Assembly: GCA_021734105.1 (NCBI GenBank)
Contig: JAIPJP010000001.1
Coordinates: forward strand, 36,603 to 100,602
Origin: Candidatus Woesearchaeota archaeon
Lineage (GTDB): Archaea > Nanobdellota > Nanobdellia > Woesearchaeales > SKGA01
DNA length: 64,000 nt
Reading direction: 5' to 3'
Under the pieces are notes generated by a model. The model was not told where the DNA came from. It was given only the letters and a program-made list of their open reading frames with translations, and ran no database searches. The position numbers and the translations under genes are program-made. This document shows, in pieces, positions 3,101 to 60,466 of the stretch (positions within the stretch are counted from its first letter, which is position 1; each line of letters begins with the position of its first letter).

Positions 3101-6100
3101 AGTTCTGGCACTCTTGAAATTGCGTATTATCCTACTATGTCTACAAATAATGCTCAGTTTCCATTGTATGGTTACTTAAGAGATGATGCTAATAATGTAA
3201 ATGGTTATGATCGTTTAAATGATGGTTCTGGAGATGTTACATTGGCTTGTGATAATGATGGTCCTTCTGATCCAAATGTAACAGTTACTGGAGTGACCGA
3301 TGATTCTGTAAGTCTTTCTTGGACTGTGGCAGATGATGAGTCTGGTATTGATTATATTCGTTTGTACTTTCAGAAATCTCCTTATGTTGATGCCGGTGAT
3401 CAAATTGATATTGATGGTTGCGGAGGCACCGTTGAGTATAGTTTGCCTGTGGGTACTGCAAGCTCGTATACTATTGATTGTTTAGAAGGTAATCAAGATT
3501 ATAGATATTATATTAGAGCATATGATAATGTTGGTTTAACGACTAATGATGGGTATTATACGGTAACTACTGAATGTGGAGCTCATTCTGATTGTGCGAG
3601 TGGAGAGTATTGTTCAGCAGCAGGTTCTTGTATTGCGCAAATATCTACTGAAGGAACAGCATGTTCTGATGCTGCTGTGATTGATAGTGATAGTGATAGA
3701 ATGTGTTCTGATACTACTTATGCGAGAAGTTGTTTTAGCGGTTCAAACCAATATTGTCAAGGAACTGGCGCGGCAGCTACTGGCGGTGAATGTCGTCGTA
3801 ATAATGGGGAGTCTTGCAGTACAGGTGATGAATGTGGTAGTGGTGTGTGTGCTTCAGGAACTTGTCGTGCCGCTAATGGAGGGGTTTGTAACTCGCCAGG
3901 AGGTTGTGGTTCTGAAACTTGTTCTGCAGATGATAATAATTGGAATAGTGGAGATGGTCAATGGGGTGGTCCGGCGAATAGCGGTTGTGCAACAAACATG
4001 CCTATTGATGAATACACTGCAAATTTTGCTGATTGTACTGTTATAGGTAGTGGTATTGGTAATTGGAATAGGGATTCTGATTGTGATGAAAATTGTGTAG
4101 GGGATAATGTTACTATAAATTCAGGCGGTCCGGTCTACCCTTATTGGTACGGTTATTGTATAACGTTAAGAACTTATGGTCAGTCTTGTTGTCAAGCTCG
4201 TGGCGGTGGTTCTGGTGGTTCTGGCGGTGGTGATTGCGCTGCTAATTTGGACTGTTATGGTGTGAGTGGTGCTACTGCTGGCGTGTGTCGTAAAGTGAAT
4301 GACCAAACGTGCGATAATGGCGATGAGTGTTTCTCTGATTTATGTATTGGCGGTACTTGTCAATCTGCTTGTGATGGAACTAATGATGGTCAAGGTTGTA
4401 GTTCCACGAGTACTTCGTATACGACATATGGTACTTGTGCTGGTCAGAATGGCGGATCGTATGTTTGCGATACAACCGATGAAGTTGCGTATGATCCCAC
4501 AGTGTATGAAACTCTTTGTTCTAATGCTGCATATTCGGATAGTTGTATGAGTTCTGCAGGAGGTCTTTTTTCTGCTGATGGAGTTTGTGGAAGTACAAGT
4601 AATGCTGCTTGTTGTACGCAGTTTGCTGATGGAACAAGCAGCGATAATAGGCCTTTAGCGTGTACTGCAGGAAATAGTTATGCACCAAGTAGAGAATATT
4701 GTGATTATGTTGGTGATGGTAGTTGGGATACAGGAACGACTGCTGGAACAAATAAATTTAGAACTGATGCTAGTGATAATAAATGTGTTGCCTGTGATGC
4801 AAATAATAAGGAGTACGCTGTTACAAATTTAGGTACATCCGATGGTTTTTGTGAGTATGGTTGTGGTGCAAATATTTATTGTGATGAACACGCATCTGGT
4901 TATGATATAGGTCGTTGTGACCAAACAGGTCAGTCTTATTATGAAGATGAATGCACTTCGACGTGTGGATTACAAGACGTAACTACTTGTGAAGCAACAG
5001 GAACAGGATGTACTGCATCAAGTGAGTGTGATGAAAATAACATAAATACTTGTGCAAATAATGGCGGTCTTGACGCGACAACACCTTATGGTTATTGTTC
5101 AACTTGTACTGTTCAGGCAGCTACAGCATCTGAAAATGCTTGTAAATGTGCTACTTGTGGAACAGATAATTCAGGCGTTCCAACGTGCACGATAAATCCT
5201 TGGAGTGCTAGTAATTGGGCTGGTTCTCAAGGTGGAGATGTTTGTTGTGGAGATGAAAGCGCTGAAAACGCAAGATATAGAAATGAGTATGCTTCTTGGA
5301 CTGATCAATTTTCTTGGAATGATGATACGACCGACACAGCTTGTTGTAGTTCAACAGAACTTTGTACTTATGGAGGTAATTGTTATACTGTTGGACCTAA
5401 AGATTTAGATTCTGTGGGTGGACGCGAAGCTTATTGTCATAGTAGTGGTGGTGGTTGGTTAAACACGGATTATCATGAAAGTTATTGTGATGATTACTAT
5501 GGTGATGATGCTTGGAATGTAGGAAATGGAGACGCTATTGGTGATAATTGGACTCCTGTAAATGGTAACACTGTTGATCAGAATTATTGTAATGCAAGGC
5601 AAGCAACCGAAGGAGGAAATTTTGTTGCTAGTCTTCATTGTTGTTGTGGTGATGATGAAAACGAAAATCGTAATAGTCAAGTGTGTTCTGGCGTAACTGA
5701 TTGTGCGACTACGCCAACTGATGATGCTTGTTGTGATGCGTCAACTGATTGTGTTGAAGCTGGTGTTTGTTATACTCATTATCCTGATGGTTTGGCTGAT
5801 TCTTCAGATACTTCTGTTGATTTTGGTGATGAATGGGGGACGTGTGTTAGCGGTACGTGGGTTGATCCAGATGTTGTGGAGGCTCGTTGTACTGAAATTA
5901 ATAATCATGCTTCTGGAACTGCAACTTGGATTGTTGCTGGCGAGATATGTGGAGAGTATTCTGATACGACTACGTCTGCTTGTTGTGGTGATGATGACGG
6001 CGAGAATTATATTAATTGTGTTGCAGAAACGAACGCTAAATTTCCCGACACGGGTACTTGTGATTCGAGTGATGCTGCTTGTTGTGATGCTTCTTCTGAT

Positions 6101-9100
6101 TGTGTAACTGCTGATGATCAAACTTGTGTTACTAATGCAACGACTCATGATGGTGATGGTGATGGTGATTTAGATTACTGTCTTGATGGGGAGTGGCATG
6201 ATTGTGCTGACGATTCTCATTGTGCAAGTGATGAAATTTGTGTAGGTGATGATTTTAATTCCGAAGGTCATTGTTCTTATGAGTATTTATGTCGTGATGT
6301 TGATTTTGAAGCTCCTGGAGGCACACTTGATATTGGTGAATGGGCATATTATGTTGATTTAGATGGTTCCGCGGCTGGTTTTAGTTGTGGTGATCACGCA
6401 TTTACTGTTCCTGCAACTCCATCAGGAAATTTTTGTGTGCGATTCGATATTTTGGATGGAGATAGTCATAGTATTGTTGCAGGGACATCGTTGAATCATG
6501 ATACTAATGAATATTTTCCTGCATCAACTAATACTGACAATAATAATTGGGATGCAAATTTTGTGTATGATTATGATGATTCAACAAGTAATTTTATTCA
6601 AGCAGAACCTCGTGAGTGGGAAACAGGTATTGCTCTTTTCTTTGGTAATTATATTTCTGAAGCAGGTGATACAGATAGTGCTTCCAGTCAATCTGGTTGT
6701 TGTGATGATGCTACTGATTGTGTTTATGATGCAAATATATTGAGAAATGTTACTCCTGCATCGCGTAGTGGGTTTACTGAAAATGATTATGGTTGTTATG
6801 ATCAAACCACTCTACTAGAGACTGGTTATGGTGATGGTGGTAATGATGATAGTGCTGAGTATTGTGGTGCTTCTAATACTTGGTATGCTGCTGATGAAGA
6901 TGGAACTGCTTGTAGCGCTGCAGGTGGTGTTTGGGGAAGTAGCGGTATAACGGGTGGTGATGTTGCTGACGCTCCTTTTGGCGGATATATTGTTGGTTCT
7001 GAGACTGAGTGTTGCGGTGATGATGCTGGTGAGAATTATCGAGGTAGTGCATCTGGTGGTGATGGTTATCAATCGTTAGTTGGTGGTACCTATGCTTGTT
7101 GCGATGCTTCTACGGATTGTGTTGATGATTCTGGTAATTGTGTTTCTAATACGGGAACTCATTCGTATACTGGTGTTTGGTGGGAATGTCAAAGCGGTGT
7201 TTGGGTTGATGTTGGTTGTACTGCTTCAACGAATTGTGCTGCTGCGCAGTATTGTGATACAACGACGCATGTATGTACTGCGATTGCAACGCCGTCTATT
7301 ACTGCTTCTGCTCAAGATGATTGGGTGTTAAATGGTCGTCTTGGCGGTGTTGATGTGGATTGGTCTGGAACTCTTCCTTCGCCAACTGATTTATCTTATG
7401 AATATCATGTTGAAATGACGCTTCCTTCTTCAAGTACTTTGTATGATGGTAGTTCCACTTCGTATGATCATTCTTCTTTAGAGGATAATGTTAGGTATTG
7501 TTATCGCGCAAGAATAGAAAATACTGGTACTGTAACTCACTATGGTTCTTGGACTTCAAATGTTTGTAATGTAACTTTAGACAGGACTGGTTTTAAAGCT
7601 GATTATCCCGCGATTACTTTAGATCCGCAAAATAGTGCAAGTAATCGTATTGATGTCGGATGGAATGACTTAAATGTTTCAGCTGCAGGAAACGATGATT
7701 CTCCACGTGATAGGTATGTGAAAGTTAATGGAACAATTCAGCACACTACTTCTCGAAGTTATGCTTTGTGTTCTATGACTGATTCTTGGGGCGTGAGTTC
7801 TTGTACTAATTATGATGTGTATGGTAGCACTGCTGCTCGAGATAGTATGGTAACAGCAATTAATAGTTTATCTGCTGGGCAAAATGTTGTTGTTACAACG
7901 TATGATGAACCTGCAAATAATTTGCCTGGTTCTTTGGCTACGGCTTTAGAAAGTTTGGGTGCGTCAACTGAAGCGCTCGCTTCTATGCAAACACGTGGTA
8001 GTTATATTTTACTTGGTCAAAAAGGTTTATCTGAAGGAACAGCGTTTTCTGAAAGCCAAGGGATGCGTTATGGTTCTTCAATTTATGAAACGTTTGATTA
8101 TCAAATTTTTAGGGCAAACAGTTTGAGTAGTACGTTTGAGCCTGTTGGTGGTTACTTTGATGATTTCTCTGATGGTGATTACACAAACAACGTCGCGTGG
8201 ACTGCTCATTATGCTACGTTGGATGCTTCAAATGGTTATTTGAATCTCACTGCTTCGGATAGTTCGTATGAATCAAGAGCGTACACCTCTATTAATTTAC
8301 CTCCTGACGTAGTTGTTGAATTTGATGCGTATGTTCAGACGGGTGATTACATGATGTGGGGCTTTGCAGCAACACCTTATACTTTTAGTAATGGTCAACC
8401 AACAAGTGGTGTTCGTCATTGGACTGATATTGATGATCCTTCATTTCCTATGTCTGATATTCGAGAGTATGGTGAACCTGATGGTGTTTTTGATATTAAA
8501 GATGCAACAAATATGCCGCATAGCATAGATATTAATGAAGATGAATGGGTGCATTATAAAATTATTAAAAAAGGAAGTAATTACAAATTCTTCGCCAGCG
8601 ATATATTGGTTTATGAAGCAATTGATGATACCTTTGCAGATAGCACGCTACGTTTCTTTGTAGGATCTAACACCAATGGGACAAATGCAGAGATATACTT
8701 TGACAACGTACGTGTTTCTCCTTTAGTTTCTACTGATTCCTATGAAGATACTGATGCAACTGATAATGCCCAGCCAGTAGCGCCTTCTGGTCTTGGTTCT
8801 TCAAGTCACACGGTAAGTACGTGGAGCGGCGATACAACTATTGATGCAACTTGGACTGATGCAAGTGACTCTGGTGATGATTACTTCTATTATATGTATG
8901 GTGTTGATTCCATGGGCAACATAAATTCCTTTGACTATGATACATTTGAGACATCTTATAGTGGTTGGTATCCGCGAACAGATCTAACAATTTCCAGACA
9001 AACAACATATTCTCATGGTGGTTCTTATTCCTTGCGTGCTTATGATGACGCAACTGATGGACAGTTTCAATTCTATAAAAATTATGGATCGACACTTCAG

Positions 9101-10135
9101 GATGAGTCAACTGACTTTGTTGCGGTTGCTTATGTCTACTTACCAACAGCAGGAGATTTAACTGGTGTGAGATTACAATATCGTGATGGCGGTTCTAATT
9201 TTTACACTGGTGGAACAACTTATGATACTAATTATTACACTGACTTGGATCAATGGGTAAGAATAGAGCTTCCTTTCACTGCAGATGCATCAAGTGGTAA
9301 CGGATTTCTCACTTTTCAGGCAACTGGCTCTGAAGTTGATGATTACATGTTTGTTGATGATGTGAGAGTTTACAAACGAGTCGATGATACCATCACTTCC
9401 GGTCTTGATGGTTATGCAACATCGTTTACATCTGGCGCATCAGATATTTCTTCCACGACTAAAGATGTAGAAAATAGTGCGCAGTCAAAAACTAGTAGTT
9501 CTTTATCTTCTGGACAAAATTATTATTTCAATATTAAGTCAGTTGACAACGCAAACAATTGGGATGTTGCTGCTGATACTGCTCATTATGGTCCTTTTTG
9601 GGTTTGTGCGGATAGTGCGGGTGTTGTTGATAGTGATGGTGATGACCCTTCAGGAACAGTAAGTCTTACAGATGCTGATACTACTTGTGGTTGTAGCGCG
9701 CAAGATATTACTGATTCAGACGCATGTGATTCTGATGTTGATGGTACTGCTGATGGTGTTTGTTCTGCTGGTGGTGTTTGCGCGGTTCCTTCGCCTGTTG
9801 GTAAACAATTTAAAGTTGATGATAATTCGGGTGCGAGTACGCTCTTAATTGATGAGAGTGGTGATGTGTTTATTGGTGGTTTGGTGTATGATTCGCAAGG
9901 TAGTTTAACGCCGCCAGCTAATTCTTTTATTGTAAAAAATAATGCTGGAACGGTTGTTTCTTATGTGAGTAGTAGCGGCGACTTGTATTTGCTTGGGCAA
10001 TATTATGCGCAGTCAGCTATGAGTCCAACAGGATCTAATCTTTTAGTGAAAAATACGACGGGTACGGTTGCGTACTTTGATGATGCTGGTAATCTTCGTC
10101 TTAACGGAGCATTAATTACTGGTTATAGCGAATAG
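113..10135 (+). CDS. Giant secreted, cysteine-rich multidomain surface protein, at least 3340 aa. The reading frame is open from nt 2, so the gene is probably truncated at its 5' end by the window.
   Basis: A single uninterrupted ORF of 10 kb. Cys, Gly, Asp, Thr and Ser are extremely abundant. A 'CCGDD(D/A)GEN' module followed by 'ACCDASTDCV' recurs several times. There is an FN3-like segment ('VTVTGVTDDSVSLSWT...YYIRAYD') and two ConA/LamG-like beta-sandwich segments ('...LRFFVGSNTNGTNAEIYFDNVRV', '...FVDDVRVY'). C-terminal beta-strand repeats are present ('IVKNNAGTVVSYVSSSGDLYL' / 'LVKNTTGTVAYFDDAGNLRL'). The annotated start is a TTG. No stop codon occurs in frame between nt 2 and nt 113. 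Confidence 0.8.
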   Translation: MSLRYRCSAAYVIWSSAPSTSAQCEAWCEAQDATGYSCCQFLGGTCGMSSSSTTYTGNVGDSAGYCSWTGYSNGYSCSIDSDCNSDNCQYRQVSPNDIITVFSGSSSDIVCCDEDDCVYGGTCYDPDTASSDHTGWGVEVYSNPAGTGGDNDQVVCNEWGASDARWGNLDYAKSWCESGTGTAWNLGYGDADVEGSYYTAYSSATRPTYCKASNATTLTPSVDCCCGDDDGEYVRGGDTGGVGYESLDGDTACCDSDTDCVDASGNCRAPGYDAGSYVCNSTGGVWLKDEGQSCSVDGDCYSNDNCVTAINSASKYCAPVGDECSRSGYAGGYDTGQTYDAGTTIWICLGDDLGGMACADAGTNNCDETAASSAINYYCSTGTWVSGADSAGLDAGCGVCYVCSVGTGTGPSCSAYVSAYTTDAGECTGSTGCEGSDCVCDGSGNCDINNGDTCAGDSQCVSGDCNTQPDNTWACTLSSDECADVAGTGRDIGYSVCVGTSDFTCARESIYSGTDGWDSVSCTNTCQSDGDGTYSDKEATCSSAACDALTSCNAGYACNGAASKTDGNDCATSCASNDDDYCADGYTCEGTSCVDTLDDGSTTVCDEDSDCTNDNCVTAINSASKYCAPSGRECSRSGYATGYDTGDVYSNYICLGYDDGGQLGNVACEIAPTDAGSYYWLSASGWSSGTGSGVSCSSTDNCFGESRYTDYACDGSGSCTQPGTAYTNGCSSETVLNAYECTAGSWSQVGATYCCENAASGTAVVSDPCSGKSSACINSRTCANGADSCDFTASAAESGCGDVDCSGYIYGWVGNTCQPYGTSAGYCDAAGTCDTSADPTSCNVAPVGSGGPTCGSAGCVDSSSCLIGGPTSAYDEISEVCHVDGAQHGCSAGQVCDATGTCVDTSAPTFGDVSISGHDYLSGSTYWAQAGTTFTVSYPGYDTYSINSGDHYLRAYNGTHEARINGFLNGVVDNNEWITNSHINLNGGGAPSIVTQSSGTLEIAYYPTMSTNNAQFPLYGYLRDDANNVNGYDRLNDGSGDVTLACDNDGPSDPNVTVTGVTDDSVSLSWTVADDESGIDYIRLYFQKSPYVDAGDQIDIDGCGGTVEYSLPVGTASSYTIDCLEGNQDYRYYIRAYDNVGLTTNDGYYTVTTECGAHSDCASGEYCSAAGSCIAQISTEGTACSDAAVIDSDSDRMCSDTTYARSCFSGSNQYCQGTGAAATGGECRRNNGESCSTGDECGSGVCASGTCRAANGGVCNSPGGCGSETCSADDNNWNSGDGQWGGPANSGCATNMPIDEYTANFADCTVIGSGIGNWNRDSDCDENCVGDNVTINSGGPVYPYWYGYCITLRTYGQSCCQARGGGSGGSGGGDCAANLDCYGVSGATAGVCRKVNDQTCDNGDECFSDLCIGGTCQSACDGTNDGQGCSSTSTSYTTYGTCAGQNGGSYVCDTTDEVAYDPTVYETLCSNAAYSDSCMSSAGGLFSADGVCGSTSNAACCTQFADGTSSDNRPLACTAGNSYAPSREYCDYVGDGSWDTGTTAGTNKFRTDASDNKCVACDANNKEYAVTNLGTSDGFCEYGCGANIYCDEHASGYDIGRCDQTGQSYYEDECTSTCGLQDVTTCEATGTGCTASSECDENNINTCANNGGLDATTPYGYCSTCTVQAATASENACKCATCGTDNSGVPTCTINPWSASNWAGSQGGDVCCGDESAENARYRNEYASWTDQFSWNDDTTDTACCSSTELCTYGGNCYTVGPKDLDSVGGREAYCHSSGGGWLNTDYHESYCDDYYGDDAWNVGNGDAIGDNWTPVNGNTVDQNYCNARQATEGGNFVASLHCCCGDDENENRNSQVCSGVTDCATTPTDDACCDASTDCVEAGVCYTHYPDGLADSSDTSVDFGDEWGTCVSGTWVDPDVVEARCTEINNHASGTATWIVAGEICGEYSDTTTSACCGDDDGENYINCVAETNAKFPDTGTCDSSDAACCDASSDCVTADDQTCVTNATTHDGDGDGDLDYCLDGEWHDCADDSHCASDEICVGDDFNSEGHCSYEYLCRDVDFEAPGGTLDIGEWAYYVDLDGSAAGFSCGDHAFTVPATPSGNFCVRFDILDGDSHSIVAGTSLNHDTNEYFPASTNTDNNNWDANFVYDYDDSTSNFIQAEPREWETGIALFFGNYISEAGDTDSASSQSGCCDDATDCVYDANILRNVTPASRSGFTENDYGCYDQTTLLETGYGDGGNDDSAEYCGASNTWYAADEDGTACSAAGGVWGSSGITGGDVADAPFGGYIVGSETECCGDDAGENYRGSASGGDGYQSLVGGTYACCDASTDCVDDSGNCVSNTGTHSYTGVWWECQSGVWVDVGCTASTNCAAAQYCDTTTHVCTAIATPSITASAQDDWVLNGRLGGVDVDWSGTLPSPTDLSYEYHVEMTLPSSSTLYDGSSTSYDHSSLEDNVRYCYRARIENTGTVTHYGSWTSNVCNVTLDRTGFKADYPAITLDPQNSASNRIDVGWNDLNVSAAGNDDSPRDRYVKVNGTIQHTTSRSYALCSMTDSWGVSSCTNYDVYGSTAARDSMVTAINSLSAGQNVVVTTYDEPANNLPGSLATALESLGASTEALASMQTRGSYILLGQKGLSEGTAFSESQGMRYGSSIYETFDYQIFRANSLSSTFEPVGGYFDDFSDGDYTNNVAWTAHYATLDASNGYLNLTASDSSYESRAYTSINLPPDVVVEFDAYVQTGDYMMWGFAATPYTFSNGQPTSGVRHWTDIDDPSFPMSDIREYGEPDGVFDIKDATNMPHSIDINEDEWVHYKIIKKGSNYKFFASDILVYEAIDDTFADSTLRFFVGSNTNGTNAEIYFDNVRVSPLVSTDSYEDTDATDNAQPVAPSGLGSSSHTVSTWSGDTTIDATWTDASDSGDDYFYYMYGVDSMGNINSFDYDTFETSYSGWYPRTDLTISRQTTYSHGGSYSLRAYDDATDGQFQFYKNYGSTLQDESTDFVAVAYVYLPTAGDLTGVRLQYRDGGSNFYTGGTTYDTNYYTDLDQWVRIELPFTADASSGNGFLTFQATGSEVDDYMFVDDVRVYKRVDDTITSGLDGYATSFTSGASDISSTTKDVENSAQSKTSSSLSSGQNYYFNIKSVDNANNWDVAADTAHYGPFWVCADSAGVVDSDGDDPSGTVSLTDADTTCGCSAQDITDSDACDSDVDGTADGVCSAGGVCAVPSPVGKQFKVDDNSGASTLLIDESGDVFIGGLVYDSQGSLTPPANSFIVKNNAGTVVSYVSSSGDLYLLGQYYAQSAMSPTGSNLLVKNTTGTVAYFDDAGNLRLNGALITGYSE

Positions 10136-10148
10136 GAGGTATGAATAG

Positions 10149-10559
10149 ATGGTACAACAAAAAACAAAAACAAAATCAAAAACAAAATCAACAAGTAAGC
10201 CGAAGAGCAAACAAAAGAGTGTTGCGAAAAAGTCTAGTCTTGCTTTGGTTATAGTTGCGGTAGTAGCAATAGTGGCTTTGCTTCTAAGTGTGGCTGCATG
10301 GATTTTTCCAGTTAATAATACTAAAGATGTAAGTTGGGAATGTGTGCAAACAGTGTGTACGGAATTAATGAGTGAAGCTGAAATTGAAGCACAAGTCTGT
10401 TCGCAGACTGATCAAGGGATGGTGTGTTCTTTAGAAGTTGATGGACAAGTAAGTGTTATTCCTCGTGAAGAACTCAACTTTACTGGTTTGCAATTGTGTA
10501 AAGCGCAAGCGTGTATTAAGGAAGTACAAACAAGACCGGCAAATTATTCGTTAGAATAA
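10149..10559 (+). CDS. Small membrane protein with a Lys-rich N-terminal tail, one TM helix and a Cys-containing ectodomain.
   Basis: A GGAGG motif ('aggaggt') sits just upstream. The N-terminus reads 'KTKTKSKTKSTSKPKSKQKS' and is followed by a hydrophobic helix 'LALVIVAVVAIVALLLSVAAWIF'. The gene is tightly spaced after the giant gene. Confidence 0.5.
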   Translation: MVQQKTKTKSKTKSTSKPKSKQKSVAKKSSLALVIVAVVAIVALLLSVAAWIFPVNNTKDVSWECVQTVCTELMSEAEIEAQVCSQTDQGMVCSLEVDGQVSVIPREELNFTGLQLCKAQACIKEVQTRPANYSLE

Positions 10560-10615
10560 GTTTAAGTAAGCTGAACTGATAAAACTGAACTGATAAAAAA
10601 ACAGGAGATGAAATA

Positions 10616-13186
10616 ATGGCTCAAGGAAATAAAATGAATGCAAATAAAACAGGTGTTAAGCAAAGAAAATTGATTTCGTTTAGCATGAAATTTTGTATTC
10701 TTGTAGTGATAACTCTATTGTTTTCATCTTTTGCTTTTGCTGATGAAACAAGTCTCTCCATTCAAGGTAAACTCGTCAATGCTTCTTCGGGTGCTGTTCT
10801 TTCAGGTAGTTTCTCAACCAACTTTTCCATATATGATGCGTACTCTGGCGGTAGTCCTTTATGGTCGCAGGTTTCAACAATTACAGCTGACTCGCGTGGT
10901 GTCTACAGTGTTGAGCTCAGGGGGATAACGCTTGACTTTGATGTGCCGTACTACTTAGGAGTCAACGTCGCAGGTGATGGCGAAATGTCTCCTAGATATA
11001 ATTTGACTTCTAGTCCTTATTCTTTTTCTGCGAGTGGCTTAAACGAAACAATTATTCTCAATAATAATGTGAGTTTTGACAGCGGAACCTTGTTTATCGA
11101 CACGACGAATAATAGACTTGGTATTGGAACAATTAATCCTTCTGAGCAATTGACTATGAAAGCTAATGAGAAATTGGCTTGGGAGTATACTTCTGGAAGT
11201 GGAACTGCTTTTCATTGGATTAGTGGTGGCGGTGTTAACCCTATGAATTTCACTGTTAATTCTTTTAGTGCAGATACGTCTATATATTCTTTTAATGGAA
11301 ATTCTGGTAATGTAATGACTATTTTAAATGGCGGAAATGTCGGTATTAACACTACAACTCCAACTGCACTTCTTGACGTAGACGGCAACTTCACTGCTAA
11401 TGAAATCTGCCTTGGCGGTGTTTGTGAATCTGCTTGGCCTGCTGGCAGCGGTTCTTCTGATGCTGGTGGTTGGACAAATACAAGTACTGAAACAGTGACG
11501 AGTTTAAAAGTGGGTGTTGGAACTACCTCAGCAACACAGCATAGTTTACATGTGCAAGATGGTAGCGTGTATATTGATGATGATTCTGCAGGTACTCGTC
11601 AGGGTTTGGGTTTGCAGTATGCTTCGGGAAGTATTTTTTGGATGAATCCTATAAGTACAACTGTTTTAGGTATTGGTGGTGCTGGCACTTCTGCTCCTGC
11701 AACTCATACATTATATTTAACTGCGACTGGCGATGTGGGTATTGGAACTGCTAGTCCTGATGATATTCTTCATATATTTGGGGCTAATAAAAGATTGAAA
11801 TTAGAAGGAGAGGGGGATAGTAATATAGGAACAATCATCTATTCAAATAGCACTTATAAATCGCATATTGGATATAGTTCTGGGTCAGATGGATTAATAT
11901 TTGCTCACGCAGAATCAGGATTAACTAATTTTAATGATATTGATATGATAATTAAAGACGGAAATGTGGGTATTGGGACTAATAGTCCTGAGAGCATCTT
12001 ACATTTAAAAGATTCAGATACTCACATAACTTTGGAAAGTACGGGAGCAGGGGATGCATCTTATGGATTTATTGAAATTAAAGATTCTACTGGAGAGACG
12101 ATGGGTTTTTCAGGTTTTGATAGTGGATCTAATGCAGATTACACTATAAGAACTTATAATGTTTCGGACGGAATTGATTTTCAGACAAATGGATCTAATT
12201 CTCGGATGTATATTAATCAAGAAGGAAATGTCGGCATCGGGACGACGAGTCCTTTAGGATTATTAAATGTTCATTCTACTGGACCAACTACTTTAGGATT
12301 AAGTTCAACAAGAAATCTTGATGGGCAAGGTATAGGAATATTAAGATTTTATGGTCAAAATGATGCAGGAACTCCTGAAGATGTAATTTATTCTCAAATT
12401 AGTACAGGGATTACAGATGCTTCTGATGGAACAGAAGATGGTAATTTAAATTTTTGGACAATGAAAGATGGAACAATTACTAAACAAGTCACAATAAATG
12501 AAGCAGGCAACGTAGGTATTGGAACTGTTAGTCCTGATCAACTTTTAGATATTGAAGGAGGAAATATTCTTATTGATAATAACCAATACTATATGGCGGA
12601 AAATACTATTGGAACTAATGTGGCAATAGCTTTTATTGATTCTTCTAATGTTACGGGTTTAGGAGGAGTTTTTTCTGGAGCTGAAACATCTATTCGTTCA
12701 GCTGGAGGTGAAGCAATTCGTATTGATACTTCTGGGAATGTAGGTATTGGGACTAGTAGTCCTGATGAGAAATTAAGTATTTTTGGAAATAGTGGGGGAA
12801 CTTATCTTGAAATTCATGACCAAAGAAGTACTGTTGGAGATTTGGCAGGAATAAAATTAGGGACCATGCCTTCAGGTCAAACCACTAACATGAAAACAAT
12901 GATTGCACACATAGAAACAGGAAATTATGGGATAGGAGATTTGGTTTTTGCATTAAATCCATCAGTTTCTGATTCTGAAGTTACTATCTCTGATGAAGTA
13001 ATGAGAATAAAAAATAGCGGCGATGTCGGTATTGGGACTACTTCGCCTTCAAAAACTTTAGAAGTCAGTGATGGAACTAAAGGTATTACGTTTGATCCTG
13101 ACCCAACGGATCCAGTGATTAACACTACAAGTGGCGATATTGTTATCACATCAGCTGGTGGTGATGTTATTATTCAATTGGGTTAA
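10616..13186 (+). CDS. Secreted repeat protein of 856 aa. It carries about eight degenerate copies of a fibre-like repeat, G(N/D)VGIGTxSP(D/E)xxL(H/D/S)(I/V), and may be beta-helical or tail-fibre-like.
   Basis: There is an N-terminal hydrophobic signal ('ILVVITLLFSSFAFA'). Repeat copies include 'NVGINTTTPTALLDVDG', 'DVGIGTASPDDILHIFG', 'NVGIGTNSPESILHLKD', 'NVGIGTTSPLGLLNVHS', 'NVGIGTVSPDQLLDIEG', 'NVGIGTSSPDEKLSIFG' and 'DVGIGTTSPSKTLEVSD'. N-x-S/T sequons are frequent. Confidence 0.7.
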   Translation: MAQGNKMNANKTGVKQRKLISFSMKFCILVVITLLFSSFAFADETSLSIQGKLVNASSGAVLSGSFSTNFSIYDAYSGGSPLWSQVSTITADSRGVYSVELRGITLDFDVPYYLGVNVAGDGEMSPRYNLTSSPYSFSASGLNETIILNNNVSFDSGTLFIDTTNNRLGIGTINPSEQLTMKANEKLAWEYTSGSGTAFHWISGGGVNPMNFTVNSFSADTSIYSFNGNSGNVMTILNGGNVGINTTTPTALLDVDGNFTANEICLGGVCESAWPAGSGSSDAGGWTNTSTETVTSLKVGVGTTSATQHSLHVQDGSVYIDDDSAGTRQGLGLQYASGSIFWMNPISTTVLGIGGAGTSAPATHTLYLTATGDVGIGTASPDDILHIFGANKRLKLEGEGDSNIGTIIYSNSTYKSHIGYSSGSDGLIFAHAESGLTNFNDIDMIIKDGNVGIGTNSPESILHLKDSDTHITLESTGAGDASYGFIEIKDSTGETMGFSGFDSGSNADYTIRTYNVSDGIDFQTNGSNSRMYINQEGNVGIGTTSPLGLLNVHSTGPTTLGLSSTRNLDGQGIGILRFYGQNDAGTPEDVIYSQISTGITDASDGTEDGNLNFWTMKDGTITKQVTINEAGNVGIGTVSPDQLLDIEGGNILIDNNQYYMAENTIGTNVAIAFIDSSNVTGLGGVFSGAETSIRSAGGEAIRIDTSGNVGIGTSSPDEKLSIFGNSGGTYLEIHDQRSTVGDLAGIKLGTMPSGQTTNMKTMIAHIETGNYGIGDLVFALNPSVSDSEVTISDEVMRIKNSGDVGIGTTSPSKTLEVSDGTKGITFDPDPTDPVINTTSGDIVITSAGGDVIIQLG

Positions 13187-13208
13187 AAAAACTAACGAGA
13201 AAATCATT

Positions 13209-15458
13209 ATGATTAAAACAACCACGCAACTAAAATTGTTTTGGGCACTTCTTGTCCTTATCTTGCTAGTTGTGCCGCTTGCTATTGCGCTTGATCAATC
13301 AAGTAGTGGTTATATCTCTGAAACTATTGTGGTGACTGGCGGAACAACTGCAAATTCATCAACGTATCAATCCACGCTTTCTGTTGATACTATTTCAGGA
13401 ACATCGTCTTCAAGCACGTACGATATGCAAATTGGCGCGCAATATATTTTATCAGAGTATCCTCCAGAGATAAGTTCAGTATCTCTTTCAGCCACATCTG
13501 CTGATAACTTCACATCTGATAATCTTTCAGTTTCTTACTCGACGAGTGATAATGATAGTAACATTGTTTATGCTATTACTGATTGGCGTGAAAGCAGTGC
13601 AAGTATTGCAGTCCTCAACATGCCGTTTAACACAAGAGTTACAGACCTCGGCTACGAAGTTAAAGATTTCACGAGTTATAATAATCCTGGAGTGTTTGCA
13701 AGCGCTGCAACGCAGCCTTCATGGACGTCAAGTGGTAAAGTCGGTGGCGCGTACACGTTTGATGGTGGTGATTATTTTTCTGTTGCTGATGATGATAATT
13801 CGTTGGATGTAACAACTGATTTCACGATTACGTTTTGGATGAATGCTAATGACTTAATAACTTTAAATCCGAATATTATTTCAAGAAATGGTGGTGGAGG
13901 GTATGAACCTTGGCGAGTAGAATTTACTAACGCGCCTAATGTTCGTTTAATTATTGCAAACACAACAACAAATCGTGATTTCTTATTAAATTATGCACAT
14001 GGTTTAAACACTGGTTCTTGGCATCATGTCGCATTAACGTTTGATGATGGTACTGCAGAATTATTTATCAATGGATCTTCAGTTGCAACAGACACGTCTG
14101 CAATAACTGCAGTTCGTGTATCTGGCAGTCCTTTATATGTTGGTGCAAGAACAACGTCAAGTAATTTCTTCAATGGCAGTATTGACGAAGTTCTCATTTT
14201 CAACCGCGTGCTTTCTGAAGATCAGATTGCTCAACTCTATGCGGATAGTAATGCAGGAAAATCTATGGAAACATTATTTTCCAATGAAACGAATTATGCT
14301 GATGTTTGGTCTGTTGCGATAACTCCTGTTGATGAATTTGACGTTGGAGAAACTGTTGTTTCAAACACAGTATCTATTGACGGCGGCACGTTAACTCTTG
14401 TGCATAACAATACCTTTGCAAATAACACGAACGCTCATTCTTTTAATGTCACAGCAGGAGTCTTAAGTTCGTCTGGTCCAAGCGCGATCAAGAACATATC
14501 TATAACTAATGATAATGGAACGTGTGTCAATGTTGTCAACACAACGTCAGGAAATTATTTCAACACAACATTCACGTGTACGGGAACACCTTTCATCGGC
14601 AGTTTAGTAAATATTACTTTCTGTAGTTATTCTGATGATTGTGTAGAAACGCCTGCAACAAGTAACGCATATCCTAATCAAATACCTAGTATGGGTAGTC
14701 TTCTTGCTCCTAGTGATGGTAATTCTTCGTTAATTAATCGTAATGTTACGTTTAATTGGAGTGCTGCATCTGATGATGATAATGATGTTTTAACATATCA
14801 TATTAATGTGACGAATATGAATGGTACGGACGTATCGGTTCTTTGCCCGGGTTTTACAAACACTATCCCCGCGCCAAACACCTCGTATAACCATCACACG
14901 CTTCTAAGCACATATCTTGAGTGCAATCCAATTACTAATGAAGGCTATCGTTATTTCTGGCAAGTTAAGGTGTGTGATTCGTGGAATTGTTCTGATTACA
15001 CAACGGCATGGAATTTTTCAATTACTGATTATTTAAATTTCGCTTTAACAACTGATGCAATTAATTTTACAACCGTAGGTCAATTGTATCCTAATGATGT
15101 AGAGAATACTACTGATGATGTTCCTCCCCCGTTTGTTGCGGAGAACACAGGGAATATTTATTTAAACGTTACTAATGTAACTGCAACAGCCTTATGGAAT
15201 GCTGTCGGTCTTGATACGTTTTATTATCAATACAAAGCAGCTAATACTTCAGAAGCAAATTCTTTTTCATGGTCTACTTCGCAAACAAGTTGGAACAATT
15301 TTACGGGTGTGACAAATACTGATGTGCTCATTGGCAATTTGAGTTTCCTTGATGATAGCGATACTGCTGAAATTGATGTACAAGTTACTGTTCCTGCAAT
15401 AGAAGATGCAGGTCAAAAATCAAGCACGATTAATTTTTACATAACTATGGCTGGTTAA
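13209..15458 (+). CDS. Secreted protein with a LamG/concanavalin-A-like domain. It carries a very large number of N-glycosylation sequons.
   Basis: I chose the ATG at 13209 ('MIKTTTQLKLFWALLVLILLVVPLAIALD', a signal peptide) rather than the upstream extension that overlaps the previous gene. The LamG signature reads 'TITFWMNANDL...WHHVALTFDDGTAELFINGS...LYVGAR...FNGSIDEVLIFNRVLSEDQIAQLY'. There are more than 30 N-x-S/T sequons. Confidence 0.7.
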   Translation: MIKTTTQLKLFWALLVLILLVVPLAIALDQSSSGYISETIVVTGGTTANSSTYQSTLSVDTISGTSSSSTYDMQIGAQYILSEYPPEISSVSLSATSADNFTSDNLSVSYSTSDNDSNIVYAITDWRESSASIAVLNMPFNTRVTDLGYEVKDFTSYNNPGVFASAATQPSWTSSGKVGGAYTFDGGDYFSVADDDNSLDVTTDFTITFWMNANDLITLNPNIISRNGGGGYEPWRVEFTNAPNVRLIIANTTTNRDFLLNYAHGLNTGSWHHVALTFDDGTAELFINGSSVATDTSAITAVRVSGSPLYVGARTTSSNFFNGSIDEVLIFNRVLSEDQIAQLYADSNAGKSMETLFSNETNYADVWSVAITPVDEFDVGETVVSNTVSIDGGTLTLVHNNTFANNTNAHSFNVTAGVLSSSGPSAIKNISITNDNGTCVNVVNTTSGNYFNTTFTCTGTPFIGSLVNITFCSYSDDCVETPATSNAYPNQIPSMGSLLAPSDGNSSLINRNVTFNWSAASDDDNDVLTYHINVTNMNGTDVSVLCPGFTNTIPAPNTSYNHHTLLSTYLECNPITNEGYRYFWQVKVCDSWNCSDYTTAWNFSITDYLNFALTTDAINFTTVGQLYPNDVENTTDDVPPPFVAENTGNIYLNVTNVTATALWNAVGLDTFYYQYKAANTSEANSFSWSTSQTSWNNFTGVTNTDVLIGNLSFLDDSDTAEIDVQVTVPAIEDAGQKSSTINFYITMAG

Positions 15459-15470
15459 AAGGTTTTTATA

Positions 15471-16727
15471 ATGTATAAAAAGAATAGGAAAGAAAAGAAC
15501 CGAGACAATAACAAAGTATTGTTTTTCTTAGTGTTAGCTTTTCTTTTTTTCTTAGTGTTCTCTTCACAAGTAAGTGCGTGGGGAGTGTATCCTGCTCGTC
15601 AACATGCAGAAAATACTCGTGAGCTTCAAGAGTTTCATGTCACGTTGGTAAATAGCGAGTTTAAAGATGCGTATTTTAAAGTAAACTTTGGTGGCGCTTT
15701 AAGCAATTATGCAGTATATAATGGCGGTCTTCTTCATTTCACTCAAGAGAAGAATCAAATTAACATTCCTTTTAGTTTGCAGCTTAGAGATAATTTGCAG
15801 CCTGGAAAAAACACGTTAAGCGTTGTTTTACAAGAAGTGAGCGATGAATACAAAGAGGGTGTTTCCTCAACAGTAACGCTAGTTGCAGAGGTCGTGGTGA
15901 ATATTCCTTTTGAAGGTAATGTTGTTTCTGCGCAACTTCTTGTGACGCCGCAGGGCATAAACGAGCCAACTGATTTACATATTGGTATTTTAAACAAAGG
16001 TGATGATGCTGTTTCTGTTTGGGCTGATGTAGTGATTAAAGGACCAACAAATAATGTTATTACTAAGTGGACAACAGATAAAGAAGTCATTTCTTATGCT
16101 GCAACTGGTGGTATTACAACTTCTTGGGTTGGTAACAAAAATCCTGGAATGTATCTTGCCGAGGTAACCTTGCATTATGGTGATAAAGTGATGGTTTTGC
16201 GTAAAGACTTTGCTGTTGGTGATAATAGTTTAGTTGCAGAAAGTATTAGTGCTACTGATTTTCGTCTTGGTGAAATCGTGCCTTTTGAAGTGATGGTGTA
16301 TAATAATTGGAACGCTCTTCGAGAAGGTGTTTTTGCAGAGCTTTTTGTTATTAAGCCTGATGGAAAAATTGTGCAGACGTTTAAAACAAGTCCAACGGAT
16401 ATTAACGCGTTGGCGCGTGGGGCGCTTACTGGTTATTGGGATACGAAGAATCTTGTTGTTGGTAATTATGATTTATCTGTGTTGTTAAATTATGATGATA
16501 AAACTAGTCAAGAAACATTTTCTGTTCTTGTTAGTTTAGATGATGTGAAGATTTCTAATAAGGTTTCTGGTGATGTTATTGGTGGTAGGGGTTCGGCTGT
16601 TGGTGATGCTAATGGTGGTTTGTATTCGTTATTAGTCTTGCTTATTGTTGTTCTTATTGTGGTGAATGTTGTTTGGATTTGGATTGCAAGAAAAAATATT
16701 CGTGGGGGCGGTAGCAAGAAAAAATAA
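15471..16727 (+). CDS. Surface protein of 418 aa with a signal peptide and a C-terminal TM anchor plus a basic tail.
   Basis: The N-terminus 'VLFFLVLAFLFFLVFSSQVSA' is a signal peptide. The C-terminus 'LYSLLVLLIVVLIVVNVVWIWIARKNIRGGGSKKK' is a TM helix with a basic tail. The gene lies 12 nt after the previous one, so an operon is likely. Confidence 0.65.
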   Translation: MYKKNRKEKNRDNNKVLFFLVLAFLFFLVFSSQVSAWGVYPARQHAENTRELQEFHVTLVNSEFKDAYFKVNFGGALSNYAVYNGGLLHFTQEKNQINIPFSLQLRDNLQPGKNTLSVVLQEVSDEYKEGVSSTVTLVAEVVVNIPFEGNVVSAQLLVTPQGINEPTDLHIGILNKGDDAVSVWADVVIKGPTNNVITKWTTDKEVISYAATGGITTSWVGNKNPGMYLAEVTLHYGDKVMVLRKDFAVGDNSLVAESISATDFRLGEIVPFEVMVYNNWNALREGVFAELFVIKPDGKIVQTFKTSPTDINALARGALTGYWDTKNLVVGNYDLSVLLNYDDKTSQETFSVLVSLDDVKISNKVSGDVIGGRGSAVGDANGGLYSLLVLLIVVLIVVNVVWIWIARKNIRGGGSKKK

Positions 16728-24951: not shown

Positions 24952-25293
24952 GTGTAACTCCCTCTTATTATTTTTTTTCTTGGTTATTCTCTTCGCTTCC
25001 ACAACGAACACTGCCCTGTTGTCACTATGAAGTGAGATATTATATATAAACGTTTCTATATCTGGTGTTTGGGGCTACATAAATTGCTTTAGGAGTACTT
25101 TTTTTTGCTTGTTTTTGCTTGTTTTTGCTCGTGTAGCTCCTAACTCAAAAAAACTTCAAAGGAGTTAGGCAAACGATTTTGAACAACACCCTCAAAACAC
25201 AAGTTTTAAATATCACATAAAGTATGTTAGTAGTGGTTTTTGTAAACTGGGAGATATTTATCTCTATACAAACAGCGTAAGGTGACACAAAAT

Positions 25294-51821: not shown

Positions 51822-52004
51822 TCAGCTGGTTTTTTTAACGAGTTGTTCTGGTGTTGCATGAAAACTATATTTGAGTGTGAGGTGTGGTGGTGGCGCTCGA
51901 AGTAAGGCTCGGTGCACGTCAAATGCTTCGCTTACTATTGCTCGAAGATGCTCAAGATATGCTTTAGCTTCACCTTGTATTTCAAATGAGATGTTGTATT
52001 TCAT
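51822..52004 (-). pseudogene. N-terminal fragment of 60 aa resembling a 2H phosphoesterase (LigT/ThpR-like). It is translationally coupled to the upstream nuclease gene through an ATGA overlap.
   Basis: '...HRALLRAPPPHLTLKYSFHATPEQL' carries an H-x-T-x motif preceded by an Arg-rich stretch, as in the first half of 2H enzymes. At 60 aa the ORF is less than half the length of the family and lacks the second HxTx motif. Confidence 0.3.
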
Positions 52005-53470: not shown

Positions 53471-53618
53471 TTTGTTGGTTATTGTACATTTGTTTTGTAT
53501 TTTTTTATTAATGATGCTTCTTAATTTAATTTGGATACTTATTTGAATCATAAACTACTTTGTAGTCTGACCTTTACAGTAGTTCAAAACTTTTTAATAC
53601 TTTGTTCAACTACGAATT

Positions 53619-54779: not shown

Positions 54780-54811
54780 TGTTGATTATGTATTATAATT
54801 TCACCTTATAA

Positions 54812-60430: not shown

Positions 60431-60466
60431 TAAGATTTATAATGCTTGTTTCATTCTTCTCTTTTG

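What the first reader, a model, noticed from the sequence alone, without database searches (positions are those of the whole stretch)
10616..13186. Fibre-like protein with about 8 'G(N/D)VGIGTxSP(D/E)xxL' repeats
The motif is periodic at about 60-75 aa. It resembles repeats that I recall from phage tail fibres and bacterial 'tail-fibre-domain' proteins, but I cannot verify this. In an archaeal surface operon it suggests a beta-helical fibre that could mediate attachment. A homologue shared with viruses would be notable.
Basis: partly seen in the sequence, partly recalled or inferred. Interest (0 to 1): 0.5.

Follow-up and report, generated by a model that had tools for sequence, protein, structure and literature searches.

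The report
Phage-tail-fibre-like surface fibre in DPANN archaeon
This gene of a tiny symbiotic (DPANN, Woesearchaeota) archaeon encodes a secreted fibre built from the same repeated 'capping-loop' units as phage tail fibres and the prey-recognition fibres of the predatory bacterium Bdellovibrio; the fibre type is common and known, but its archaeal version, with its own end-pieces and a conserved set of neighbouring surface genes, has not been described and is a candidate host-attachment device.

Summary
ORF 10616-13186 (+) encodes 856 aa with nine copies (eight clear, one degenerate) of G(N/D)VGIGTxSPxxxL, 57-95 aa apart. The motif occurs nowhere else in the window.

The motif is the published 'capping loop' of trimeric beta-helix fibres: Bdellovibrio MAT fibres and S74-type phage tail fibres. 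Supporting hits:
- PDB sequence search: Bd2133, E=1e-9.
- Foldseek: the top ten PDB hits are all MAT fibres.
- PHROG tail-fibre families: E~1e-27.
- Tail fibres of cultured cyanophages and pelagiphages.

The fibre family is very large (46,405 cluster representatives), so the repeat itself is ordinary.

Less ordinary is the setting. The contig is archaeal (Woesearchaeota). The protein has a signal peptide and a MAT_N-like beta-sandwich domain. It has no S74 chaperone; instead it ends in a 40-aa tail (...ITSxGGxVIIxLG) conserved in DPANN relatives. Neither end-piece was found in viral contigs.

The gene sits in a cluster that recurs in other DPANN genomes: giant secreted protein with a shared C-terminal domain, small Cys-rich membrane protein, fibre, secreted protein with a second shared C-terminal domain, and a membrane-anchored protein with three Ig-like domains.

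Most likely it is a cell-surface adhesive fibre. Trimer state and function are inferred. Verdict: new variant of a known kind; moderate interest.

The parts
10616..13186 (+). Fibre gene (856 aa). It is identical to NCBI 'hypothetical protein K9M74_00215', Candidatus Woesearchaeota archaeon. An SD-like AGGAG lies upstream of the ATG.
10616..10741 (+). Sec-type signal peptide, aa 1-42: basic n-region, hydrophobic core FCILVVITLLFSSFAFA, AFA|DE cleavage-type site. Relatives have the same layout.
   Evidence: Read from the sequence. AF2 predicts a helix at aa 16-36. No signal-peptide predictor was available.
10742..11020 (+). N-terminal beta-sandwich domain, aa 43-135, with the conserved motif YYLGVxVxxDxEMxPRxNLTSSPY. 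It is MAT_N-like.
   Evidence: AF2 pLDDT is above 90 over aa 50-130. Weak Bdello_MAT_N hit, E=0.033; relatives reach 9.6e-10. 35 of 120 homologues share the domain. 33 genome loci carry it, mostly DPANN.
11111..11152 (+). Capping loop 1 (NRLGIGTINPSEQL, aa 166-179)
11333..11374 (+). Capping loop 2 (GNVGINTTTPTALL, aa 240-253)
11504..11545 (+). Capping loop 3, degenerate (LKVGVGTTSATQHS, aa 297-310; Pro replaced by Ala)
   Evidence: It lies in a low-confidence region of the model.
11729..11770 (+). Capping loop 4 (GDVGIGTASPDDIL, aa 372-385)
11960..12001 (+). Capping loop 5 (GNVGIGTNSPESIL, aa 449-462)
12224..12265 (+). Capping loop 6 (GNVGIGTTSPLGLL, aa 537-550)
   Evidence: It aligns to a Bd3182 loop.
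12506..12547 (+). Capping loop 7 (GNVGIGTVSPDQLL, aa 631-644)
   Evidence: It aligns to Bd2133 loops GLVGINTAAPLQKL and GNVGIGATAPTAKL.
12734..12775 (+). Capping loop 8 (GNVGIGTSSPDEKL, aa 707-720)
   Evidence: It aligns to the Bd2133 loop GNLGLGTAAPTSAL.
13019..13060 (+). Capping loop 9 (GDVGIGTTSPSKTL, aa 802-815)
13064..13183 (+). Conserved C-terminal tail, aa 817-856 (VSDGTKGITFDPDPTDPVINTTSGDIVITSAGGDVIIQLG). It stands where other family members have an S74 chaperone or a tip domain.
   Evidence: It is shared with P0002, P0003, P0010, L004, L008, L021 and L028, and with 52 metagenomic clusters. It was not found in viral contigs.
113..10135 (+). Upstream giant Cys-rich secreted protein (3340 aa). 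The true start is uncertain.
9740..10132 (+). Shared C-terminal domain 'CTD1' of the giant protein, with three internal repeats of about 38 aa (F.V.N..G..VAY.D..GNL.L.G). It is conserved at the C-terminus of otherwise different large proteins upstream of fibre genes.
10149..10559 (+). Small membrane protein (136 aa): Lys-rich N-terminus, one TM helix, and an ectodomain of about 80 aa with 6 conserved Cys. It is conserved directly upstream of the fibre in L004, L006 and L007.
   Evidence: No family hit.
13209..15458 (+). Downstream secreted LamG (Laminin_G_3) protein. The likely start is the ATG at 13209; the listed ORF begins at a GTG at 13131.
14676..15431 (+). Shared C-terminal domain 'CTD2' (aa 516-767 of the LamG protein). 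In six other loci it is the C-terminus of the gene just before the p418 homologue; in L016/L019 it lies beside the fibre gene.
15471..16727 (+). p418: signal peptide, three tandem Ig-like beta-sandwich domains and a C-terminal TM helix with a basic tail. It is a conserved partner gene.

Best explanation
The gene encodes a secreted fibre of the 'capping-loop' triple-beta-helix type. This is the shaft architecture solved for Bdellovibrio MAT fibres and for S74-type phage tail fibres.

Each G(N/D)VGIGTxSPxxxL element is a capping loop that closes the edge of one beta-helical module. Nine loops bound about eight modules of 57-95 aa. By scaling from Bd2133 (370 aa, about 14-15 nm), the shaft would be roughly 25-30 nm long.

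By analogy with the solved relatives, three chains intertwine along the shaft. The confidently folded N-terminal beta-sandwich domain, which is MAT_N-like, would sit next to the cell. Specificity would lie in the variable module surfaces and/or the distal end.

The usual S74 intramolecular chaperone is absent. I propose that the conserved 40-aa C-terminal tail closes and possibly nucleates the trimer.

The gene belongs to a cluster conserved in DPANN archaea, with tight same-strand spacing. It contains two pairs of the form 'variable large secreted protein with a conserved C-terminal domain, followed by a small membrane-anchored protein'. I infer a cell-surface display platform for adhesins, used by these host-dependent archaea to attach to partner cells or surfaces.

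Shown: the motif, its homology to solved fibres and phage tail fibres, the domain layout, the archaeal origin and the conserved synteny.
Inferred: trimer state, orientation, role of the tail, docking on the neighbours, and the adhesive function.
For: Motif and chance.

Identity of the motif. Caulton et al. 2024 (PMC10769870) define the capping-loop consensus V-G-G/N-pi-x-x-P-x-x-x-L from crystal structures. Their loop alignment (e.g. AVGIGTTNPSGILH) matches ours. phmmer against the PDB hits Bd2133 (8OND) at E=1.1e-9, with three stretches that place our loops on its loops, and Bd3182 at E=0.017. Foldseek's ten best PDB hits are all MAT fibre chains: 8OND at 6e-7, then 8OML, 8ONC, 8OJN and 8ONB.

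Phage side: PHROG tail-fibre families at about 1e-27; 23 phage genomes; 258 BFVD models; the S-SM2 tail fibre beside a baseplate gene, with six loops 71-97 aa apart.

Secretion and N-domain.

No S74: no Pfam hit at E<=1 and no SDxxxK motif.

Tail conservation.

Archaeal chromosome, not a virus. The NCBI label is Woesearchaeota. TYW3 and a NOG1 GTPase lie in the window. TFIIB and eRF1 lie on a relative's contig. No capsid, portal, terminase, sheath or baseplate genes are nearby.

Conserved cluster. Gene gaps are 13, 56, 22 and 12 nt.

The AF2 monomer model has a confident N-domain and loops but poor inter-loop segments. This is what an obligate intertwined trimer would give.
Against: - No trimer model could be made; the tool folds single chains only. 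The full-length model has a mean pLDDT of 62, and the Foldseek TM-scores are low (0.07-0.37), so the structural matches rest largely on local 3Di and sequence similarity.
- The N-domain match to the curated Bdello_MAT_N model is far below its cut-off: 14 bits against 60.
- There is no tip domain. The distal end is a short, highly conserved tail, which is unusual for a receptor-binding end.
- After signal-peptide cleavage no membrane anchor remains, so retention on the cell is assumed, not shown.
- There are no expression, localisation or host data for this uncultured organism.
- The genome scan used patterns derived from archaeal sequences, so the predominance of DPANN among its hits is partly built in.
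Confidence: 0.7

Rival explanations
1. It is a viral gene: the tail fibre of an integrated or mis-binned virus, or of a phage-tail-like injection system (eCIS or tailocin), and not a cellular surface protein.
For: The shaft is homologous to genuine phage tail fibres. Two neighbours give domain-level PHROG hits: the giant protein aa 2540-2644 to a 'tail protein' family, and the LamG protein to a 'virion structural protein' family.
Against: There is no capsid, portal, terminase, sheath, tube or baseplate gene in the window or in the related loci. The protein has a Sec signal peptide and a MAT_N-like domain, as cellular MAT fibres do. The same gene order recurs next to housekeeping genes in many DPANN genomes. 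The archaeal-type N-domain and C-tail have no relatives in 2.9 million IMG/VR contigs with the patterns used.
Confidence: 0.04
2. It is a structural envelope or matrix fibre, for example a spacer, an S-layer-associated filament or a biofilm scaffold, with no specific partner-recognition role.
For: Both ends are conserved across DPANN lineages (N-domain and C-tail), and there is no variable tip domain. The protein is Gly/Ser/Thr-rich with 15 N-glycosylation sequons, as is typical of archaeal envelope proteins.
Against: The closest characterised relatives are adhesive or receptor-binding fibres. The shaft modules between loops are highly variable between relatives and within the protein. The neighbours carry lectin-like LamG domains and giant variable ectodomains typical of adhesins.
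Confidence: 0.2
3. The protein is not trimeric. The repeats form a single-chain beta-solenoid or a string of independent small domains.
For: AF2 could only be run on a monomer, and it gave beta-strands around each loop. The trimer state was never tested here.
Against: Every solved relative with this loop is an intertwined trimer. The inter-loop regions are modelled with pLDDT below 50 as a single chain, whereas the independent N-domain exceeds 90 in the same run.
Confidence: 0.05
4. The contig is a mis-binned bacterial sequence, so the 'archaeal' context is an artefact.
For: The window also encodes a DnaB-type helicase and a protein with a T9SS-type Por_Secre_tail, both typical of bacteria. 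Most family members are bacterial.
Against: TYW3 and a NOG1-type GTPase (archaeal/eukaryotic) are on the same contig. Relatives with the same cluster lie beside TFIIB, eRF1 and class-I LysRS genes. Some 27 independent archaeal MAGs carry the N-domain type, and these cluster apart from the bacterial ones in a crude NJ tree.
Confidence: 0.02

Closest known systems
Bdellovibrio bacteriovorus MAT (mosaic adhesive trimer) fibres, NS74 subgroup, e.g. Bd2133 (PDB 8OND) and Bd1334 (8OML); Caulton et al. 2024, PMC10769870
   Same: Both have a signal peptide followed by a beta-rich N-domain. Both have a long shaft punctuated by the same capping-loop motif. Neither has an S74 domain. Both are cellular (not virion) proteins encoded with other surface proteins. 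These are the best sequence and Foldseek hits in the PDB.
   Different: This protein is from an archaeon with no outer membrane. The N-domain matches the curated model only weakly (14 bits against a 60-bit cut-off). There is no folded tip domain, only a conserved 40-aa tail. It sits in a different, DPANN-specific five-gene cluster. Archaea are not mentioned in that paper or in its supplements held as text.
[quoted passage not shown]
   Same: They share the triple-beta-helix shaft with capping loops. Many homologues of the query end in PF13884.
   Different: The query has no S74 chaperone/protease domain and no SDxxxK motif. It has a secretion signal and a cell-type N-domain in place of a virion-attachment domain.
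Tail fibres of marine cyanophages and pelagiphages, e.g. Synechococcus phage S-SM2 YP_004322190.1; PHROG 9942 and 18345
   Same: They show 26-30% identity over several consecutive modules. The loops are the same and the spacing is the same, 71-97 aa.
   Different: The phage proteins lack the signal peptide, the N-domain and the C-tail, have their own tip domains, and lie among baseplate and tail genes.
Enterococcus WxL-interacting protein WxLIP (PDB 9I1Y), as an analogy for the partner p418 only

Membership tests
Bdellovibrio MAT family (NCBIfam NF053851 Bdello_MAT_N; Caulton et al. 2024) | Signal peptide directly followed by the conserved beta-rich N-domain of about 130 aa | tested here: inconclusive
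   The signal peptide and a confident beta-sandwich at aa 43-135 are present. The HMM match is E=0.033 and 14 bits against a 60-bit cut-off, over profile positions 2-46 only. Relatives with the same domain reach 9.6e-10 and 38.5 bits, still below the cut-off. This gives superfamily-level homology, not curated membership.
Bdellovibrio MAT family | Shaft with capping loops V-G-G/N-pi-x-x-P-x-x-x-L bounding beta-helix modules | tested here: met
   There are nine loops. They align onto the Bd2133 and Bd3182 loops. The top Foldseek PDB hits are MAT fibres.
Bdellovibrio MAT family | Intertwined ('meandering') homotrimer | not testable with these tools
   Only single-chain AF2 was available. The pattern of confident loops and poor inter-loop segments is compatible with a trimer but is not proof.
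Bdellovibrio MAT family | C-terminal S74 domain or a folded adhesive tip domain (TNF-like, C-type lectin, beta-sandwich) | tested here: not met
   There is no Pfam domain. Only 40 aa follow the last loop, and they form a conserved tail instead.
Bdellovibrio MAT family | Displayed on the cell surface and adhesive | not testable with these tools
   The organism is uncultured and no localisation data exist.
Peptidase_S74 'tail fiber domain-containing protein' (Pfam PF13884) | C-terminal intramolecular chaperone/protease domain with the SDxxxK motif | tested here: not met
   There is no PF13884 hit at E<=1 and no SDxxxK motif. Many homologues do have the domain.
Phage tail fibre (PHROG 9942 / 18345) | Profile match to the tail-fibre family | tested here: met
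   E=9e-28 with 5 stretches, and E=1.5e-26.
Phage tail fibre (PHROG 9942 / 18345) | Encoded in a virus or tail module and part of a virion | tested here: not met
   There are no viral hallmark genes nearby and housekeeping genes lie on the same contig. The N-domain and C-tail are absent from IMG/VR with the patterns used.
Archaeosortase-type C-terminal sorting signals (PGF-CTERM and similar) | C-terminal motif followed by a TM helix and a basic tail | tested here: not met
   The tail ends ...GGDVIIQLG, with no hydrophobic helix or basic residues. This was judged by reading the sequence.

The most novel reading that the evidence does not exclude
The fibre is one arm of a previously undescribed, DPANN-wide cell-surface display system. 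In this reading, variable giant adhesins and the phage-tail-fibre-like fibre are held on the cell by conserved docking modules: CTD1 with the Cys-rich small membrane protein, CTD2 with the three-Ig-domain anchor p418, and the fibre's N-domain or C-tail on the same platform. Together they would determine which host cell these ectosymbiotic archaea attach to. This would be an archaeal counterpart of phage receptor-binding apparatus and of Bdellovibrio prey recognition. The 40-aa tail would act as a minimal, chaperone-independent trimerisation cap.
Probability: 0.25. Interest if true: 0.75.

Novelty: new variant of a known kind. Interest (0 to 1): 0.45.

Why it matters
How DPANN archaea recognise and hold on to their hosts is largely unknown (PMC11329633). 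No paper I could find links them to this fibre family. Public annotation calls this protein and its neighbours 'hypothetical'.

Two results make the question testable. The fibre is homologous to receptor-binding fibres of phages and of a bacterial predator. It also lies in a gene cluster conserved across Woese-, Pace-, Nano- and Aenigmatarchaeota-labelled genomes. This gives concrete candidates for expression, for labelling in cryo-ET, and for comparison between strains with different hosts.

The result also extends the capping-loop fibre architecture to Archaea. The conserved 40-aa tail is a possible S74-independent way of finishing such fibres.

The repeat itself is not new. The family has tens of thousands of members.

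Tried and rejected
1. Pfam finds nothing in the fibre at E<=1. NCBIfam gives only the weak MAT_N hit.
2. An exact-sequence contig look-up of the fibre found nothing, although the homologue search returned the identical NCBI protein.
3. tRNA and Rfam scans of the window were empty and gave no taxonomic help.
The narrower A5 worked.
5. Alignment A2 was too large for structure prediction, so A3 was used.
6. The afdb50 fold library was not available. The N-domain could therefore not be compared with AlphaFold models of MAT proteins.
8. The tail search returned only short gene-call fragments. These proved to be C-terminal ends of fibres on short contigs, not a family of small proteins.
9. The tail as an archaeosortase-type sorting signal was rejected because it has no TM helix.
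10. Prophage or eCIS context was rejected.
11. Recent DNA duplication or an assembly artefact was rejected.
12. A frameshift fusion with the downstream LamG gene was considered and rejected, by reading the sequences only. That gene has its own ATG at 13209 and its own signal-peptide-like N-terminus.
Full report
OBSERVATION

The ORF at 10616-13186 (+) is real and encodes 856 aa. A strict pattern, G[ND][VL]G[IV][GN]T, occurs seven times. A looser eighth copy (NRLGIGTINPSEQL) and a degenerate ninth (LKVGVGTTSATQHS) bring the total to nine. Their V/L positions are aa 168, 242, 299, 374, 451, 539, 633, 709 and 804, and the spacing is 57-95 aa. Only 12 of 20,000 shuffles of the protein produced even one strict copy. 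The motif occurs in no other frame or gene of the window.

The conserved element is about 30 aa. The intervening segments are not detectably similar to one another. At the DNA level the copies are only 66-77% identical, so conservation is at the protein level and is not due to recent duplication or an assembly error.

WHAT THE MOTIF IS

Pfam finds nothing, but three independent routes lead to the same place.

- A sequence search of the PDB hits the Bdellovibrio fibre Bd2133 (8OND, E=1.1e-9) in three stretches and Bd3182 (8OJN, E=0.017). In each stretch the query motif aligns to ...GNLGLGTAAPTSALHV...GLVGINTAAPLQKLHV or ...GNVGIGATAPTAKLEV.
- The paper describing those structures (Caulton et al. 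2024, PMC10769870) shows that these sequences form 'capping loops' on the edges of trimeric beta-helix modules. It gives the consensus V-G-G/N-pi-x-x-P-x-x-x-L and finds the same feature in S74 phage fibres (T5 pb1, K1F endosialidase) and in MyRF. Its loop alignment (e.g. AVGIGTTNPSGILH; MyRF RVGINTDRPDEALV) matches the loops here.
- PHROG tail-fibre families 9942 and 18345 match at E=9e-28 and 1.5e-26. tblastn finds 23 cultured phages, mostly cyanophages and pelagiphages, at 26-30% identity across several modules. In phage S-SM2 the hit is the annotated tail fibre next to a baseplate wedge gene, and it has six such loops spaced 71-97 aa.

An AF2 model was made as a single chain with a 60-sequence alignment. 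Its mean pLDDT is 62. The N-domain exceeds 90, the loop regions reach 70-89, and the inter-loop segments fall below 50. This is the outcome expected when one chain of an intertwined trimer is folded alone. Foldseek's ten best PDB matches to it are all MAT fibre chains (8OND at 6e-7, then 8OML, 8ONC, 8OJN, 8ONB), and 258 viral models match at E<=1e-3. TM-scores are low, so these matches count as local homology and not as global superposition.

The family is very large. An exhaustive search of 1.84 billion representatives gives 46,405 hits at E<=1e-3 and 10,343 at E<=1e-10, many of them giant proteins with more than 20 matched stretches. The repeat as such is ordinary.

ANATOMY OF THIS PROTEIN

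- Residues 1-42 look like a Sec signal peptide (basic n-region, hydrophobic core, AFA|DE). Relatives have the same layout, with the mature end abutting the next domain. No predictor was available, so this rests on reading the sequence.
- Residues 43-135 form a confidently predicted beta-sandwich. It matches the start of NCBIfam Bdello_MAT_N weakly (E=0.033). Relatives carrying the same domain match more strongly, down to 9.6e-10, always at the same profile positions and always below the curated cut-off.
- Residues about 154-816 are the shaft with nine loops.
- There is no S74 domain and no SDxxxK motif.
- The last 40 residues (VSDGTKGITFDPDPTDPVINTTSGDIVITSAGGDVIIQLG) form a tail that is conserved to the very last residues in Woesearchaeota relatives (P0002, P0003, P0010) and in further DPANN loci (L004, L008, L021, L028). 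A profile of the tail retrieves 52 metagenomic clusters. All are gene-call fragments that begin in a final capping loop and end ...VII[KRQ]LG.
- The tail has no TM helix, so it is not an archaeosortase-type signal.
- In L021 a second, internal copy exists. In P0020 a weak tail-like segment precedes a C1q-type tip. This suggests that the tail is a shaft-terminating element and not a receptor-binding domain.

ORGANISM AND CONTEXT

The protein is identical to a 'hypothetical protein' of a Candidatus Woesearchaeota MAG on a 101.7-kb contig. The window carries TYW3 and a NOG1-type GTPase, besides MetRS, a P-type ATPase and other genes. A relative's contig has TFIIB, eRF1 and class-I LysRS. There are no viral hallmark genes. 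Neighbours give only domain-level PHROG hits. This is a cellular, archaeal locus.

CONSERVED CLUSTER

The five genes from 113 to 16727 are on one strand with gaps of 13, 56, 22 and 12 nt. Comparison with loci from other genomes shows a recurring order of five genes:

1. A large secreted protein whose body varies (Cys-rich here; LamG-rich or NosD-type beta-helix elsewhere). It ends in a shared domain of about 115-130 aa (CTD1) made of three repeats of about 38 aa.
2. A small membrane protein with six conserved Cys.
3. The fibre.
4. A secreted protein with a variable N-terminal part (LamG here) and a shared C-terminal domain of about 250 aa (CTD2).
5. A p418 homologue.

All five genes occur together in the window and in L004. 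L001 and L008 carry four of the five (no small Cys-rich protein was detected; L001 has extra genes in between). The cluster is partial, often at contig ends, in L003, L006, L007, L015 and L022.

Two loci reached independently through p418 homologues (L037, L038) again show a CTD2-bearing gene immediately before p418.

DISTRIBUTION

A scan of species-representative genomes with the N-domain found 33 loci. Twenty-seven are archaeal, labelled Woese-, Pace-, Nano- and Aenigmatarchaeota, plus several MAGs labelled 'uncultured Methanosarcinales'. The rest are bacterial. The search patterns came from archaeal sequences, so this shows breadth within DPANN, not relative abundance.

In a crude NJ tree the archaeal N-domains group together apart from the bacterial ones, and the 'Methanosarcinales'-labelled sequences interleave with Woesearchaeota. 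I therefore treat that label with caution. C-termini among the archaeal proteins differ: the tail in six, other endings in L010, L011 and L016. The N-domain also occurs near the C-terminus of other proteins (L018, L020, L030). The archaeal family is thus mosaic, like MAT. Neither the N-domain type nor the tail was found in IMG/VR viral contigs. Only the shaft is shared with viruses.

MECHANISM

Shown:
- the loop motif and its homology to solved trimeric fibres and to phage tail fibres;
- the domain layout;
- the absence of S74;
- the archaeal origin;
- the conserved synteny.

Inferred from the solved relatives:
- Three chains intertwine.
- Each loop caps a module.
- The N-domain sits near the cell.
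- Scaling from Bd2133 (370 aa, about 142-150 Å) gives a shaft of roughly 25-30 nm.

My own proposals, untested:
- The tail closes or nucleates the trimer in place of the S74 chaperone.
- The cluster's two 'cargo with conserved CTD plus membrane anchor' pairs and the fibre form a display platform for adhesins used in partner attachment.

RIVALS

I considered a viral or eCIS fibre, a purely structural envelope fibre, a non-trimeric solenoid, and a mis-binned bacterial contig. They are weighed in the rival list. Only the structural-fibre alternative keeps appreciable probability.

COMPARISON AND NOVELTY

The closest known relatives are the NS74 MAT fibres of Bdellovibrio. The layout is the same: signal peptide, N-domain and capping-loop shaft. 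The differences are:
- the domain of life;
- the weak N-domain match (curated cut-off not met);
- the absence of a tip domain;
- a new conserved tail;
- a different gene neighbourhood.

The protein fails the defining feature of the S74 'tail fiber domain-containing' family. It is not in a virion context, so it is not a phage tail fibre in the strict sense.

The MAT paper and its supplements held as text do not mention archaea. Searches of the paper library found nothing that links DPANN or Woesearchaeota to these fibres. That library is incomplete, so prior description elsewhere cannot be excluded.

I rate it a new variant of a known kind, of moderate interest. The repeat is common and explained. 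The archaeal version and its conserved cluster give a concrete, testable candidate for DPANN host attachment.

Noticed in passing
window 113-10135 (+): A giant Cys-rich secreted protein of 3340 aa, with many CxxC-rich modules. One segment, aa 2540-2644, matches a PHROG 'tail protein' family (2e-13). Its listed TTG start has no obvious signal peptide, so the true start is uncertain. Its last 130 aa or so form the shared CTD1.
   Followed up: partly
window 22909-25011 (-): A 700-aa protein ends in a Por_Secre_tail (T9SS C-terminal sorting domain; E=1.4e-9, above Pfam's cut-off). This is odd in an archaeon, which has no type IX secretion system.
   Followed up: no
window 38088-39977 (-): A bacterial-type DnaB replicative helicase (DnaB_C 3e-37 plus the DnaB N-domain; 629 aa, with about 140 extra N-terminal residues) on an archaeal contig. 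It may belong to a mobile element.
   Followed up: no
window about 52000-60500: A low-GC stretch (0.30-0.32 in places) carries DUF2779, Fic/DOC, RadC and a ParE-like toxin, plus several ORFs with no family. It looks like a mobile or defence island. A Tam41/Mmp37-type CDP-DAG synthase lies at 57072-58058.
   Followed up: no
window 27483-31709 and 31745-34072 (+): Two further large ORFs (1408 and 775 aa) have no Pfam or PHROG hit and no relatives in the fetched loci. They may be additional surface proteins.
   Followed up: no
L008 5952-7334: The fibre tail is partly duplicated at the C-terminus (...ITSSGGSVIIKSSGGSVIIKLG). This could be a real micro-duplication or an assembly slip.
   Followed up: no
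L018, L020, L030 (match at 8001 in each): The fibre-type 'N-domain' lies near the C-terminus of otherwise unrelated DPANN proteins of 840-950 aa. The domain is therefore a mobile module and not always N-terminal.
   Followed up: partly
L004, L006, L007, L008, L016, L018: MAGs labelled 'uncultured Methanosarcinales archaeon' carry the same cluster. Their GC content is 28-38%, and their N-domains interleave with Woesearchaeota in a crude tree. The taxonomic label is probably unreliable.
   Followed up: partly
L037 4248-11637: Downstream of a p418 homologue lie five small or medium ORFs with no family, a second weak p418-like match (5975-6826), a Transglut_core protein and a PIN/T2SSE(weak)/KH protein. 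This may be an extended surface-assembly locus.
   Followed up: no
P0185-P0193: The best-scoring distant relatives in the exhaustive search are giant proteins of 3,500-7,700 aa with 16-28 matched stretches, so some fibres of this type would be many times longer than this one.
   Followed up: no
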